64,000 nucleotides of DNA from the human T2T-CHM13v2.0 reference genome, Homo sapiens: NCBI RefSeq assembly GCF_009914755.1, contig NC_060926.1. One strand, given 5' to 3'. The translations under genes and the position numbers were made by a program. Below the pieces are notes generated by a model. It saw only the letters and a list, made by a program, of their open reading frames with translations. It did no database searches and had not been told where the DNA came from. This document shows positions 16,959 through 22,119 of the stretch, piece by piece (position 1 is the stretch's first letter; each line of letters opens with the position of its first letter).

Positions 16959-18337
16959 TCAACTTTTGATCAACCCAAAGAACCAGCTTATGGTTTCACT
17001 GATTTTTCTCTATAAATTTGCTGTTTCACTGATTTCCCCTCTGATCTTTATTTCTTTTCTTCTGCTTACATGGGGTTTAATTTGCTTTTGTTCCTTAACC
17101 TAGCAGTTGAGGTTATTGATTGGATCCTTTTTCTAAAATAGGCATTGAGTACTACAGAACCCCCAGCTAATTCCTCACAGCTAGATCCTCATGTTTACCC
17201 AGGTAGCTTATGTTTTTAATCAACATTACTCTACTTTTGACAGAAATAGCTTTGCTAATATTGAGAAACTTAAGGTTTAAGACAACCTGAAAAGAATAAT
17301 CTGATTTTTCTAATAAGATTCTTTTTTAATGGCCAACATGAATGATACTTTAAGCATTTGAGTAGAAATTCTTTATATATGAATGGAGTATGAAATATTA
17401 AAATCTCACTAAAATAACAGATGTAATATAAACGTCAAGAACTGTAGGAGAAATTAATAAAGAGGTCTATTGAATTGCATAAAGAGTGTTTTTGTTGTAA
17501 TACATGTTTCCTTTGACTTCACTGTTTAAAGTGATTCCCCTAAATATGTTGCTTTTATGTTGAAGCCACAGTAACTACTAACAAATCATTTAAAACCCTA
17601 TAGAACTTTATAGGAGCTGAAATATTCAGTGGATGACCTCAGAAAAGATACAGATATATCATTATGTCTCATTTTTATTTTCAGGTGTTCAGATTAAAAC
17701 TATTGCTTTAAATTGGATATTAGAGCTCAAGAAATATTGAGACACGTTTGACCACTTTTGTTTCCTTGGTTCATTTACTTGTCCACATACTGAAGACTAC
17801 TGTAAAAACAGGGAAAACATTTTTAAATGACAACTTGTTCAAAATCTAAACTTTAAAAACTAAGCTCTAGAAATTCAAGGAAAATAATAAGATGACATTT
17901 TGTTTTGCCTCAAGCCCTGAACACATCATTGGTATAATCATTTAGCTAATGTCAAACAACATAGTGTCTGGCAAGATTTTAGCTAGAGTCAACTATCAAC
18001 TCTCCACAGCTTATCACTGAAATAACAAGCTTCGTGTGACCATATTAAAAATTATCAGTTTTACATTTGAAAGGCCCAGTGCCAACCTGGAAAAAATTGC
18101 TTGCATTGATGAGTAATAAATTCTACATTTTGCATATTCTCACAACTGCATGAATTCATTTCACAATGTTGGCAAATAATCTGAATTCTTGGTGGCACGG
18201 GTCCTCCGTATGCTGAGCGCCGGTCCCCTGGGCCCACTTTTCTTTCTCTATACTTTGTGTCTCTTTCTTTTCTCAGTCTCTCGTCCCACCCGACTGGAAA
18301 CACCCACAGGTGTGGAGGGGCAGGCCACCCCTTCATC

Positions 18338-18355
18338 TGGTGCCCAACGTGGGTG
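18338..18355 (+). other. Primer binding site (tRNA-Lys)
   Basis: TGGTGCCCAACGTGGGTG directly after the U5 end ...CCCCTTCA-TC. Confidence 0.9.
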
Positions 18356-18459
18356 CTTTTCTCTAGGTTGAAGGTATGCTCGAGCATGATCATTGAGGAC
18401 AAGTCGACGAGATTCCCGAGTACGTCTACAGTCAGCCTTGTGACATTTGAAGTTCTACA

Positions 18460-18867
18460 ATGAACCCGTCGGAGATGCAAAGAAAAGCACCTCCACGGAG
18501 ACAGAGACACCGCAGTCGAGCACCATCGGCTCACAAGATGAACAGAATGGTGATGTCAGAAGAACAGATGAAGTTGCCATCCACCAAGAAGGCGGAGCCG
18601 CCGACATGGGCACAATTAAAGAAGCTGACACAGTTAGCTAAAAAAAAGCCTAGAGAACACAAAGGTGACACAAACTCCAGAGAACATGCTGCTTGCAGCT
18701 TTGAAGACTGTATCAACAGTGTCTGCAGGTGTACCCAGCAGCTCCGAAGAGAGCGACCATCGAGAACGAGCCATGATGACAACGGTGGTTTTGTCGAAAA
18801 GAAGGGGGAAATGTGGGGAAAAGAAAGAGATATCAGACTGTTACTGTGTCTATGTAGAAAGAAGTAA
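18460..18867 (+). CDS. 135-aa Rec-derived chimeric ORF (translation unproven)
   Basis: [22 protein letters not shown]...[12 protein letters not shown] is Rec/Env signal peptide residues ~1-60; frameshift at the A8 tract 18640-18647. Confidence 0.55.
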
Positions 18868-19654
18868 ACATAAGAGACTCCATTTTGTTCTGTACCAAGT
18901 AAAATTTTGTCTTGAGATGCTGTTAATCTGTAACCCTACCCCCAACCCTGTGCTCGCAGAAACATGTGCTGTGTCAAGATTTAATGGATTTAGGGCTGTG
19001 CAGGATGTGCTTTGTTAAACAAATGCTTGAAGGCAGTATGCTCGTTAAAAGTCATCACCACTCCCTAATCTCAAGTACCCAGGGACACAAAACACAGTGG
19101 AAGGCCGAAGGGACCTCTGCCTAGGAAAGCCAGGTATTGTCCAAGGTTTCTCTCCATGTGATAGTCTGAAATATGGCCTCCTGGGAAGGAAAAGACCTGA
19201 CCGTCCCCAAGCCCAACACCCGTAAAGGGTCTGTGCTGAGGAGGATTAGTAAAAGAGGAAGACATCTGTCTCCTGCTCATCCCCTGGGCAATGGAATGTC
19301 TCAGTGTAAAACCCGATTGTATATTCCATCTACTGAGATAGGAGAAAACCGCCTTAGGGCTGGAGGTGAGACATGCTGGCAGCAATATTGCTCTTTAATG
19401 CACCGAGATGTTTATGTATGTGCGTATCAAAGCACAGCACCTTTTTCTTAACCTTGTTTATGACACAGAGACATTTGTTCACTTGTTTTCCTGCTGACCC
19501 TGTCCCCACTATTACCCTACTGTCCTGCCACATCCCCCTCTCCGAGATGGTCGAGATAATGATCAATAAATACTGAGGGAACTCAGAGACCGGTGCCGGT
19601 GCGGGTCCTCCCTATGCTGAGCACCGGTCCCCTGGGCCCACTTTTCTTTCTCTA
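18812..19654 (+). promoter_or_regulatory. HML-2 3' LTR U3-R (promoter/enhancer; Rec-responsive element region)
   Basis: Starts TGTGGGGAAAAG after the polypurine tract 18796-18811; AATAAA 19565-19570; U5 absent. Confidence 0.9.
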
Positions 19655-20201
19655 TTAAAAAAAAGAATCTGATTTCTTAACTGTAGTATACATACATATT
19701 TCTCTTCCAAGCAGGTATTAAAAACACATTGTCTGCTTCTCAGAGAGTTATAGTTGAGTTACTGCACTATGTCTTTTTGACAGTAGTTTTAAGGTTTGGA
19801 ACGTATTGGAGTTGCTTGAAAAGATTCATTATACTGCTTTATTAATGTAACCCCAGTGGGCTGAACCATTTGTATTCAGATACATGGGGAAATATGTAGT
19901 CTACTTTAAAACTGTTTTTCCACTGAAAAAAAAGAATTTTGTTAAATGAGGGGAAAAAAATAGGTAAATAATTGCAAAGTCAGTGTTTTCTGTTGGACTG
20001 TAGTAAATTATGGATGTTACTGGTACTTACTGAAGCATCAAAGTTATTTTAAAAAGAGAGACAAGCACAGAAGGCATGCCAGTACTCCTACTGCTTAATT
20101 TCAACTTCCCGGACAGTTAAGTGAAGTTTTGTTTTGGATGTGCTTCCATATGGCTTTGTTTTCTGAGCAAAAGTATATGAATTTGCCTTATACCATTTTA
20201 A

Positions 20202-20485
20202 TTTTTTTTTCTTTAGATGGAGTCTTGCTCTGTCACCCAGGCTGGAGTGCAGTGGCGGAGTCTTCGGCTCACTGCAACCTCTGCCTCCTGGGTTCAAGCG
20301 ATTCTCGTTCCTCAGCCTTCCAAGTAGCTGGGACTACAGGCATGCGGCCCCACTTGACTAATTTTTGCATTTTTAGTAAAGATGGGGTTTCGCCACGTTG
20401 GCCAGGCTAGTCTCGAACTCCTGGCCTCAAGTGATCTGCCTGCCTCAGCTTCCCAAAGTGCTGGCATGAGCCACCGAGCCTGGCC
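20202..20485 (-). mobile_element. Alu (old S/J)
   Basis: Dimeric Alu in reverse complement. Confidence 0.92.
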
Positions 20486-22119
20486 TGAATTTTTTAAATG
20501 CACTTTTTTCTCATTCACAGCAGCCATTAAATTCAAAATACTTTTATAGATCAATTCCATATAGTAATTTTAAGGTGTACTTTGCCTTTCCTGGGTGAGA
20601 GTTACATCTCTATATAAATGAAACAGTAAGTCATGGGCTTTCTCGTGTGAACACTAAGTGACTTGGCAATGTACCGTGTTGTTGTGAGTACATTGATAAT
20701 ACCGAGATAAATTCTGTTTTTCAGTCTTCATGTCATCACTGATGAGGGAGAACCCTCAGCTTGACAGTCTAAGGTAAGTTATGTGGGAAGCGATAATATT
20801 ATTACAGATGTGCTAATGTACAGGAAAGTGACAGAAAATGTAGACACTTGAGTGGCCCACATCAATTACTGCTGTATTTACCTTCTTGTATCAATCCATC
20901 TAGTCTTGAACTAAGAATACATTTATAACATGACCCTCAGGAGTTCACATTCACAAGAAAAATGGTGATGAAAATGTCATGAAATGATAAGCAGGAAGCA
21001 CACTGTGAAGTTGCCCTTTGGTATCCCAGCCAGCTCCTTTCAAACACAGCATTCCATGTGGGCCGTTGGTAATTTTCACTGGGCTCAAGATGATTAAGTA
21101 ATTATAGAACTGTCTTTAACCTCATTTGGTATTTACACTTTGAGGGTTTTTCTAAAGAAGTGTTCCTTTCCCATCTTTGATTATTCTCTATCCCTTGGCA
21201 ATCTCATTCACTTTCATGATTTAAATAATTGCTTCCATATGAACAACTGTATCTTCAGCCTCACATGTCCAGTAAGCTACTTACTGCACAGCTCAACGTG
21301 AATATCCTGCCAGTTCTTCACATTCCATACTAAAGTTGTTTTCTTTCCTAAATCTTTTCCTCCTTTTTCTTTCTTTTTTTCCCCCTGTTATTAAGATTTT
21401 ATTATCCAGCCAAGTGGACTAAAAAATATCTATTGGTTATTTTGCCAAACCAAGATTTCTCCTACATTCATCCTCTTTTCTATTCACATGGCCACTATCC
21501 TGTATTACTCAGGCTCTCATCTCCTTTCATAATTAGTCACATGTAATTTATCTTCCAAACTGAAACATTTTTTGAGTGTGGAAGGGACACTATGGAGAGT
21601 GAAGAAAACTCTTTTAGTACTTACATTAGACAACTGGTATACATTGGAACTGTCCTCTGCAAACTTGGGCATATGTTCACTGTACTTGTAATTAATTTAA
21701 CCTGTTTCCTTTCCTTCCCTTCCTGTAACCGATCCATCCAAAGCATTGCTGGATTTATCTTCTTAAGCATAGTTTTAATCATGAGGTCTCCCACTTCATA
21801 ATTCTTTAATGGCTCTAAATTGCCTACCAAATACAATCTAAATATTTAGGCCTAATCTTCAAACTCTCCTCTGGTGGCCCCAGCTTCCCTCTCCTACTTT
21901 CTTATTTCTTTAGTCAAGTAACTCACAATGTAATGCTTAACTTTTTTGATCCTGAGTTACCTCATTAGTAAGGTAGGGATTAAAATGTCTCTTCCTCAGT
22001 TGTGAAGCTGTAATGGGGTATTATATGTAAAGAAAGTAGGCTGGTATATAAGTACTTAGCAGCAAGTACTTAGTACATAGGCACTGAGGTATTAGTAGCT
22101 ATTATCACATACACTGTAG

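What the first reader, a model, noticed from the sequence alone, without database searches (positions are those of the whole stretch)
18460..18867. 135-aa chimeric ORF passing through the Rec, Env-tail and Np9 frames
Seen: ~60 Rec residues, including the Arg-rich RRQRHRSR motif and the Leu-rich [10 protein letters not shown] motif, are followed by a +1 A. After the splice junction the ORF reads [10 protein letters not shown] (Env cytoplasmic-tail frame). After a 2-bp loss (GAAGAG--AGCGACC) it reads [17 protein letters not shown] (Np9 frame), then a novel tail into U3. Established (recalled): Rec uses the Arg-rich region for RNA binding and nuclear import and the Leu-rich region for CRM1 export; Np9 normally comes only from type 1 proviruses. 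Inference: if translated, this is a Rec variant missing its C-terminal half. It could act as a dominant-negative modulator of HERV-K RNA export or supply neo-epitopes.
Basis: partly seen in the sequence, partly recalled or inferred. Interest (0 to 1): 0.75.

Follow-up and report, generated by a model that had tools for sequence, protein, structure and literature searches.

The report
Known retrotransposed HERV-K rec pseudogene ERVK-30
The 135-codon reading frame is real, but it sits in an already published, roughly 20-million-year-old LINE-1-made copy of a spliced HERV-K rec messenger RNA, and it looks like a decayed leftover rather than a working gene.

Summary
The ORF at 18460-18867 (+), 135 aa, exists as described. 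It lies in window 18191-19664. That stretch is R-U5-leader, then rec exon 2, then exon 3 with U3-R and an A8 tail, flanked by a 13-bp target-site duplication. This is an L1-made processed pseudogene of a doubly spliced HERV-K(HML-2) type 2 rec mRNA.

The locus is in print. Schmitt et al. 2013 (PMC3590776) describe the same duplications, the same 408-bp ORF and its presence from chimpanzee to gibbon but not rhesus. Schmitt et al. 2015 (PMC4351823) name it ERVK-30 and find cDNAs in most normal tissues tested.

Residues 1-60 are Rec. A net +1 in a length-variable A tract shifts to an alternative exon 2 frame, which continues as the Env-tail frame. A 2-nt loss shifts to the np9 frame. A second 2-nt loss shifts to the Rec phase beyond Rec's stop.

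Every frame used is also open in an intact provirus. Window-only substitutions are equally frequent in the coding and LTR parts. Escaping a nonsense change by chance has P 0.3-0.7. Published work on the Env signal peptide argues against a dominant-negative role. Verdict: already known, low interest.

The parts
18178..18190 (+). 5' target-site duplication, AATCTGAATTCTT
   Evidence: Exact string found. The same string is printed by Schmitt 2013.
18191..18251 (+). 5' R region. The cDNA starts at or near the LTR transcription start.
   Evidence: 18198-18251 aligns to 19602-19655 with 2 mismatches in 54. The 5q15 copy starts at the same place.
18252..18335 (+). U5
   Evidence: Matches to LTR 3' ends of other loci stop at 18335.
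18336..18442 (+). Primer-binding-site region and leader, up to the major splice donor
   Evidence: Aligns to the 7p22.1 leader (L044) up to ...CAGCCTT. The provirus continues ACG|GTAAG; the window has GTG and then exon 2.
18443..18721 (+). rec coding exon 1 (the start of env), from the env splice acceptor to the rec splice donor
   Evidence: In 7p22.1 this stretch is preceded by ...CACTAG| and followed by |GTAAGT. 38 other places in the genome match this piece alone.
18460..18867 (+). The 135-aa chimeric ORF
18640..18647 (+). A8 tract, site of the first frameshift (net +1 against in-frame copies)
   Evidence: The length varies among copies.
18722..18811 (+). rec coding exon 2 region (3' end of env), where the Env, Rec and np9 frames overlap. 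It holds a 2-nt loss at 18752/18753 and a 2-nt loss in the A run near 18800-18804.
   Evidence: In 7p22.1 it is preceded by ...GTTAG|.
18812..19597 (+). U3 of the 3' LTR, with AATAAA at 19565
   Evidence: LTR-only matches begin at query 625-628, which is window about 18809-18812. AATAAA was located.
19598..19656 (+). 3' R, ending at the polyadenylation site. There is no U5.
19657..19664 (+). Poly(A) tail remnant (A8)
   Evidence: Agrees with Schmitt 2013.
19666..19678 (+). 3' target-site duplication, AATCTGATTTCTT (12/13 identical to the 5' copy)
18686..19018 (+). Second, overlapping 110-aa ORF. It is the mirror chimera: Rec frame, then Env frame, then np9 frame.

Best explanation
Window 18191-19664 is ERVK-30 (2q32.1). 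It is a processed pseudogene made when the LINE-1 machinery reverse-transcribed and inserted a full-length, doubly spliced rec mRNA of an old type 2 HERV-K(HML-2) provirus. According to the literature, this happened after the split from Old World monkeys and before the gibbon split.

Since then the locus has decayed. A net +1 change arose in a slippage-prone A tract, or possibly already in the source RNA. Two 2-nt losses and scattered substitutions followed.

The 135-aa ORF is the by-product. Translation would start at the old env/rec ATG and be pushed one frame onward at each of three indels. It finds no stop because that alternative frame of rec exon 2 and the frames of the overlapping Env/Rec/np9 region that it uses were already open in the parent virus.

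Shown: the anatomy, the splice junctions, the frame path, the lack of a detectable difference in substitution rate, and the publication record. Inferred: that the ORF has no selected function. If it is translated at all, the likely product is a basic, probably nuclear or nucleolar peptide with no Rec export activity and no effect on Rec.
For: Structure:
- The element starts in R and lacks a 5' U3. It ends in R with an A8 tail and lacks a 3' U5. It is flanked by a 13-bp duplication, 12/13 identical.
- Both joins fall exactly at the provirus's GT/AG splice sites.
- In the genome search only one other place spans both joins, the 5q15 copy. 38 places match exon 2 alone. 40 of 371 candidates were scored.

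Pfam HERV-K_REC matches only residues 20-63.

Frame path:
- All frames used are open in the intact 7p22.1 provirus.
- The three indels are absent from nearly all other copies: 28/28 and 26/28 files for the two 2-nt losses, and 9/12 loci are 1 nt shorter at the A tract.

Neutrality:
- Window-only substitutions are 4/180 in the Rec part, 2/68 after the A tract, 1/89 in exon 3 and 18/817 in U3+R.
- P(no nonsense) is 0.32-0.67.
- The sister retrocopy at 5q15 has a stop at codon 20.

Literature (passages read):
- Schmitt 2013, PMC3590776.
- Schmitt 2015, PMC4351823.
- Mayer 2018, PMC6091006.
- Ruggieri 2009, PMC2649029: the signal peptide, which shares 87 aa with Rec, has no export activity and does not interfere with Rec (abstract).
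Against: - The ORF has stayed open for about 135 codons, while its sister copy has not.
- The start codon has A at -3.
- cDNAs assigned to this locus were cloned from most of the normal tissues examined by Schmitt 2015. The text gives 15 tissues, with DNA-contamination controls on three RNAs.
- The NES-like stretch is unchanged, and six of eight residues of the Arg-rich stretch are kept.
- Trans-dominant negative Rec variants encoded by other human loci do exist (PMC12724133).
- Schmitt 2013 report only one dbSNP variant in the ORF, a synonymous one.
- My rate comparison has little power (4 events in 180 sites).
- I could not examine ape orthologues, Ribo-seq data or proteomics data.
Confidence: 0.86

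Rival explanations
1. The ORF is translated in normal tissues and the product modulates HML-2 RNA export. The product could act as a competitor for RcRE RNA or for CRM1, or as a dominant-negative partner of Rec.
For: - The locus is transcribed in many tissues (PMC4351823).
- The ORF is intact, with an Arg-rich stretch and an unchanged Leu-rich stretch.
- Trans-dominant Rec variants are encoded at 5p13.3, 10p14 and 12q14.1 (PMC12724133).
Against: - Those variants are near full-length Rec proteins. Truncated ones were excluded from that study, and 2q32 is not mentioned in it (0 hits).
- The Env signal peptide, with 87 Rec residues, does not interfere with Rec.
- The C-terminal part named in Boese 2001 as the multimerisation domain (title only) is missing.
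- 2 of 8 residues in the Arg-rich stretch are changed.
- Three upstream ATGs lie in the leader.
- There is no sign of constraint.
Confidence: 0.04
2. The ORF is translated at a low level without a selected function. It gives a short-lived basic peptide that matters only as a source of unusual peptides for antigen presentation.
For: - Transcripts exist.
- The start codon has A at -3.
- The frame-shifted stretches (aa 61-87 and 116-135) lie in frames that belong to no HML-2 protein considered here (Env, Rec, Np9).
Against: - The promoter and the 5' end of the transcripts are unknown.
- Upstream ATGs are present.
- I found no report of such peptides. The main-text searches returned only the two Schmitt papers for this locus. 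Supplementary peptide tables were not searched.
Confidence: 0.08
3. The locus is a provirus that lost gag-pol and most of env by deletions, or a spliced RNA that was re-integrated in the retroviral way, rather than an L1 product.
For: Env-internal deletions do occur. 1p34.3 lacks 7p22.1-equivalent positions 505-1744. 10q24.2 lacks 727-2099, which ends at the rec acceptor.
Against: - Both breaks here are exactly at the donor and acceptor sites.
- There is no 5' U3 and no 3' U5.
- The element has a poly(A) tail and a 13-bp duplication.
- Unfixed HML-2 integrations in PMC4136357 show 5-6-nt duplications (table footnote).
Confidence: 0.01

Closest known systems
ERVK-30 (HERV-K(HML-2) locus 2q32.1), Schmitt et al. 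2013 (PMC3590776) and 2015 (PMC4351823)
   Same: It is this locus. The target-site duplications, the A8 tail, the rec-type exon joins and the 408-bp ORF with an N-terminal 60 aa about 90% identical to Rec/Env are all the same.
   Different: [quoted passage not shown] Here they are resolved as 10 residues in the Env-tail frame, 17 in the np9 frame and 20 in the Rec phase past its stop, produced by three indels.
ERVK-31 (5q15), the second retrotransposed rec mRNA
   Same: It has the same exon joins and the same 5' start. An expanded A tract gives the same frame shift modulo 3. It has its own duplications (TTAAAAATGT) and a poly(A) tail.
   Different: It has a stop at codon 20. It differs from the window at 7.2% of aligned bases and has a different insertion site.
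HERV-K(HML-2) Rec (105 aa) and the 96-aa Env signal peptide
   Same: The start codon and first 60 residues are shared, including the Arg-rich NLS (aa 13-20) and the Leu-rich NES region.
   Different: Rec residues 61-105 are missing. These include the hydrophobic stretch and the 18-aa C-terminus encoded by the second exon. Even the signal peptide, which keeps 87 of these residues, lacks Rec activity.
Np9 (type 1 proviruses)
   Same: 17 residues are read in the np9 frame of the shared last exon.
   Different: The locus derives from a type 2 RNA and has no 292-bp deletion. The type 1 splice donor is not used, and only 17 of the 59 np9-frame residues are present.
HERV-W and HERV-H processed pseudogenes made by L1 (Pavlicek 2002, Goodchild 1995; cited, not read)
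   Same: Same mechanism: retroviral RNA copied by L1, with an R-to-R structure, a poly(A) tail and long duplications.
   Different: According to the title and abstract of PMC5016936 in the search listing, HERV-W copies of this kind are numerous. Only two HML-2 rec retrocopies were found, both here and in print.

Membership tests
L1-mediated processed pseudogene (retrocopy) | Introns removed exactly at the parent gene's splice sites | tested here: met
   Both joins coincide with ACG|GTAAG / CACTAG| and ATGGTG|GTAAGT / GTTAG| of the 7p22.1 provirus.
L1-mediated processed pseudogene (retrocopy) | Copy runs from the transcription start to the polyadenylation site and ends in a poly(A) tail | tested here: met
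   It starts in R with no U3, and ends in R with no U5, followed by A8.
L1-mediated processed pseudogene (retrocopy) | Target-site duplication of roughly 7-20 bp | tested here: met
   13 bp, 12/13 identical, at 18178-18190 and 19666-19678.
L1-mediated processed pseudogene (retrocopy) | Empty site in an outgroup species | not testable with these tools
   No primate genomes are held. Schmitt 2013 report the locus in chimpanzee, gorilla, orangutan and gibbon, and its absence in rhesus and marmoset.
HERV-K(HML-2) Rec (Pfam PF15695) | Match to the family profile above the curated cut-off | tested here: met
   85 bits against a cut-off of 27.5, but only model positions 2-45 of 87.
HERV-K(HML-2) Rec (Pfam PF15695) | Full 105-aa protein with the 18-aa C-terminus from the second coding exon in the Rec frame | tested here: not met
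   The frame leaves Rec after residue 60. The Rec-frame C-terminus is read only by the separate ORF at 18686-19018, and only in part.
HERV-K(HML-2) Rec (Pfam PF15695) | Arg-rich NLS/RNA-binding stretch (aa 13-20) and Leu-rich NES | tested here: inconclusive
   The NES region is identical to 7p22.1. The Arg-rich stretch differs at 2 of 8 residues. Motif positions come from PMC2649029. Activity was not assayed.
HERV-K(HML-2) Rec (Pfam PF15695) | Export of RcRE-containing RNA | not testable with these tools
   Needs a reporter assay.
Np9 | Type 1 provirus (292-bp deletion) and its specific splice donor 44 nt after the ATG | tested here: not met
   The window holds the complete type 2 exon. The type 1 structure was seen in 22q11.21 (L045) for comparison.
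Trans-dominant negative Rec variants (Zurowska et al. 2025) | Near full-length Rec with few changes that inhibits functional Rec in an RcRE reporter | tested here: not met
   Only 60 Rec residues are kept. The locus is not among those the paper studied, with 0 mentions of 2q32. Inhibition was not testable.

The most novel reading that the evidence does not exclude
ERVK-30 is transcribed from a host promoter in most tissues. Its frame-hopping ORF could be translated into a 135-aa basic protein that keeps Rec's import and export signals but not its C-terminal part. Such a protein could compete for CRM1 or RcRE-bearing RNAs, or carry peptides found in no other human protein. That would make a retrocopied retroviral accessory gene a host-encoded regulator.
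Probability: 0.05. Interest if true: 0.45.

Novelty: already known. Interest (0 to 1): 0.12.

Why it matters
The finding matters little beyond bookkeeping. The locus, its origin, its ORF and its transcription have been in print since 2013, and it has an HGNC name.

This check adds four things:
- an exact account of why the ORF is open: three indels, each moving one frame onward through frames that were already open in the parent;
- the observation that the first shift sits in a length-variable A tract shared with the sister copy;
- a rate comparison that shows no sign of constraint;
- published results on the Env signal peptide that make the dominant-negative idea unlikely.

There is one practical point. 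Because the locus carries an intronless rec-like sequence and is widely transcribed, RT-PCR or antibody studies of 'rec' can pick it up. The cited authors already note this.

Tried and rejected
- A literature search for a short motif of the np9-frame stretch found 0 papers. I therefore identified the np9 frame from a type 1 provirus and a paper's description of the splice donor instead.
- A strict count of window-private changes against 12 loci gave only 2 of 183 (1 synonymous, 1 not). That is too few to use.
- Rfam gave no match in 17500-20500.
- The AlphaFold2 single-sequence model of the ORF had mean pLDDT 56.5 and pTM 0.22, with no confident fold. It was not searched further.
- Earlier findings of this scan were not open to the session.
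- 'ERVK30' in PMC4136357 is a different, unfixed locus at 20p12.1.
- I considered a provirus-with-deletions reading and a retroviral re-integration reading and rejected both on structure.
- No complex prediction was run. Full-length Rec could not be supplied without joining exons, and nothing in the evidence called for it.

Full report
**What is there.** It runs from 18460 to 18867 on the + strand, ATG to TAA, 135 codons, with the quoted peptides. Pfam's HERV-K_REC model (PF15695) matches residues 20-63 at E 3.7e-24 (85 bits, cut-off 27.5). The match covers only model positions 2-45 of 87. The rest of the model (positions 58-81) is matched weakly (E 0.012, below the cut-off) by a second, overlapping ORF at 18686-19018.

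**Surroundings.** The ORF sits in a 1.47-kb element at 18191-19664.
- The element begins in the R region of an HML-2 LTR, with no U3 in front.
- It continues through U5 (to 18335) and the leader.
- It then jumps to a 279-nt piece that holds the env/rec start codon (18443-18721).
- It jumps again to the last 90 nt of env, and runs through U3 and R. There is no U5 at this end.
- It ends in A8 (19657-19664).
- It is flanked by AATCTGAATTCTT (18178-18190) and AATCTGATTTCTT (19666-19678).

These points rest. The 5' and 3' R copies differ at 2 of 54 aligned bases.

**Splice junctions.** I fetched pieces of a type 2 provirus on chromosome 7 of the same assembly. L043 has an intact 699-aa env ORF. L044 holds the leader.
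- In the provirus the leader continues ...CAGCCTTACG|GTAAG. In the window the leader stops at the equivalent point.
- The next piece is preceded in the provirus by ...CACTAG| and followed by ATGGTG|GTAAGT.
- The last piece is preceded by ...GTTAG|.

Both joins are therefore the env and rec splice joins. [quoted passage not shown] That is the signature of LINE-1-mediated retrotransposition, not of retroviral integration.

**Other copies in the genome.** A search of the window's own assembly with a 401-nt probe across both joins gave 42 matches (40 of 371 candidates scored). Only the window itself and one place on chromosome 5 span both joins. 38 places match the exon 2 piece alone, and 2 rows are exon 3 pieces of deleted proviruses. 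The longer probe gave the same picture.

The chromosome 5 copy has its own duplication (TTAAAAATGT), a longer A tail, the same 5' start and a stop at codon 20.

**It is published.** Schmitt et al. 2013 (PMC3590776; passages read) describe a 2q32.1 HML-2 locus as a retrotransposed rec mRNA. They report:
- the same two duplication strings and the 8-nt poly(A);
- presence in chimpanzee, gorilla, orangutan and gibbon, and absence in rhesus and marmoset;
- transcription in a melanocyte line, plus ESTs;
- one synonymous dbSNP variant.

Schmitt et al. 2015 (PMC4351823; passages) name it ERVK-30 and name the chromosome 5 copy ERVK-31. They find cDNAs from both in most normal tissues tested (15 and 13 tissues), with DNA-contamination controls. 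They state that the promoter is unknown. Mayer et al. 2018 (PMC6091006; passages) deal with the 5q15 copy.

Searches for 'HML-2' plus '2q32.1', for 'ERVK-30' and for alternative names returned only these papers for this locus. 'ERVK30' in PMC4136357 is another locus.

**Frame path.** I mapped each ORF codon onto the intact provirus. Residue numbers are my own count from the ORF.

| Residues | Frame | Identity to 7p22.1 |
|---|---|---|
| 1-60 | Env/Rec | 54/60 |
| 61-63 | Lys codons from the A tract (18640-18647) | n/a |
| 64-87 | alternative frame of the same exon | n/a |
| 88-97 ([10 protein letters not shown]) | Env-tail frame | 10/10 |
| 99-115 ([17 protein letters not shown]) | third frame (np9) | 15/17 |
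| 116-135 | Rec phase, downstream of Rec's own stop | 18/20 |

- The window is 1 nt longer at the A tract than 9 of 12 compared loci.
- A 2-nt loss at 18752/18753 shifts the reading from the Env-tail frame to the third frame.
- A further 2-nt loss in the A run near 18800-18804 shifts it to the Rec phase.
- The ORF ends at a stop that is also a stop in 7p22.1. The last 56 nt lie in U3.

The third frame is the np9 frame. In the type 1 provirus on chromosome 22 (L045) the 292-bp deletion is present. The only GT between the ATG and the deletion lies after 44 nt. PMC12724133 describes the np9 donor as created just upstream of that deletion. 44 nt puts the shared last exon into exactly this phase.

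**Are the indels special to this locus?**
- The loss at 18753 is absent from all 28 compared locus files (24 distinct places).
- The loss near 18804 is absent from 26 of 28 files.
- The A tract is different. It is A8 here, A11 at 5q15, A12 at 1p34.3 and A9 in L042 (chromosome 12; I take this to be the 12p11.1 provirus). Younger proviruses have an interrupted, 1-nt-shorter sequence there.
- PMC12724133 notes an in-frame Lys insertion at position 62 for 12p11.1.
- The window and 5q15 differ by exactly 3 nt, so both take the same shifted frame.

I cannot tell whether the shift arose after insertion or was already in the source RNA.

**Is the open frame more than chance?** No.
- In the intact 7p22.1 provirus, the alternative frame of exon 2 is stop-free over the whole exon.
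- There the Env-tail frame is open for 46 codons and the np9 frame for 59 codons. The Rec phase is open again after its stop, up to the same terminal stop.
- Frame changes in this direction therefore land in open sequence.
- For nonsense substitutions, the ORF has 14 transitions and 57 transversions that would make a stop. At 2.1-6% divergence the chance of none is 0.67-0.32.
- Of the two retrocopies, one kept the frame and one did not.

**Constraint.** I used four loci that cover the whole region: 5q15, 1p34.3, 10q24.2 and 7p22.1. I counted positions where the window alone differs while all four agree.

| Region | Window-only positions | Share |
|---|---|---|
| Rec part | 4 of 180 | 2.2% |
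| After the A tract | 2 of 68 | 2.9% |
| Exon 3 | 1 of 89 | 1.1% |
| U3+R | 18 of 817 | 2.2% |

There is no sign that the coding part evolved more slowly, though the power is low. A stricter count against 12 loci left only 2 positions and is uninformative.

**Could it work as proposed?**

In favour:
- The locus is transcribed.
- The ATG has A at -3.
- The Leu-rich stretch is unchanged, and six of eight residues of the Arg-rich stretch remain. Motif positions are from PMC2649029.
- Trans-dominant negative Rec variants encoded in the human genome have been demonstrated for 5p13.3, 10p14 and 12q14.1 (PMC12724133).

Against:
- Those variants are near full-length. That study set truncated sequences aside and does not mention 2q32.
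- The Env signal peptide shares 87 residues with Rec and differs only at its C-terminus. It does not shuttle, has no export activity on HML-2 RNA and does not interfere with Rec (PMC2649029 abstract).
- A cited title places Rec multimerisation in a C-terminal domain (Boese 2001; seen only in a reference list).
- The element has no promoter of its own at its 5' end.
- Its leader holds ATGs at 18210, 18376 and 18386.
- A single-sequence AlphaFold2 model was of low confidence (mean pLDDT 56.5) and says nothing either way.

**Verdict.** The object is the known processed pseudogene ERVK-30, and the ORF is best read as a decay product in a region where overlapping viral frames keep reading frames open. 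The dominant-negative idea is not excluded, but it is unsupported and made unlikely by published work on closer Rec relatives. The decisive tests could not be run here. They are the ORF's state in ape orthologues, ribosome profiling, peptide evidence and a reporter assay.

Noticed in passing
window 18686-19018 (+): A second 110-aa ORF is the mirror image of the reported one. It starts at an internal Met of Rec and reads the Rec frame across the exon join ([10 protein letters not shown]). The two 2-nt losses then carry it into the Env-tail frame and the np9 frame, and it runs on past the position of the np9-frame stop of 7p22.1.
   Followed up: partly
L002 (G000:C5:93939254-93943791), reverse strand: The 5q15 retrocopy (ERVK-31) starts at the same base of R as the window's copy. 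This suggests that both source RNAs used the same transcription start. It also has a 3-nt loss that removes one Glu of the EE pair around Rec residue 34, the position reported as deleted in the 12q14.1 variant of PMC12724133. The stop at codon 20 makes this moot.
   Followed up: partly
L033 (G000:C1:36351865-36355148): The closest relative of the window's element is a 1p34.3 provirus remnant, with 6.3% mismatches over 1207 aligned bases. It has an env-internal deletion at 7p22.1-equivalent positions 505-1744. The deletion does not sit at splice sites, unlike the one at 10q24.2 (727-2099), which ends at the rec acceptor.
   Followed up: partly
window 18640-18647 and the same site in L002, L033, L034, L042: The A tract at Rec codons 61-63 varies in length among older HML-2 copies (A8, A8, A9, A11, A12). 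It is interrupted in younger proviruses. It is a likely slippage hot spot that repeatedly changes the Rec/Env reading frame.
   Followed up: yes
window 20429 onward (+): The annotated lncRNA LOC107985784 starts 751 nt downstream of the element on the same strand, inside a masked repeat (20188-20507). It does not start at the R start of the element's U3-R, so the retrocopy's LTR part is not its annotated promoter. I did not examine whether published ERVK-30 cDNAs belong to a longer host transcript.
   Followed up: no
window 18061-18393 (-): A 110-aa antisense ORF spans the upstream flank and the R-U5 part. It was not searched against any family library and was taken as chance.
   Followed up: no
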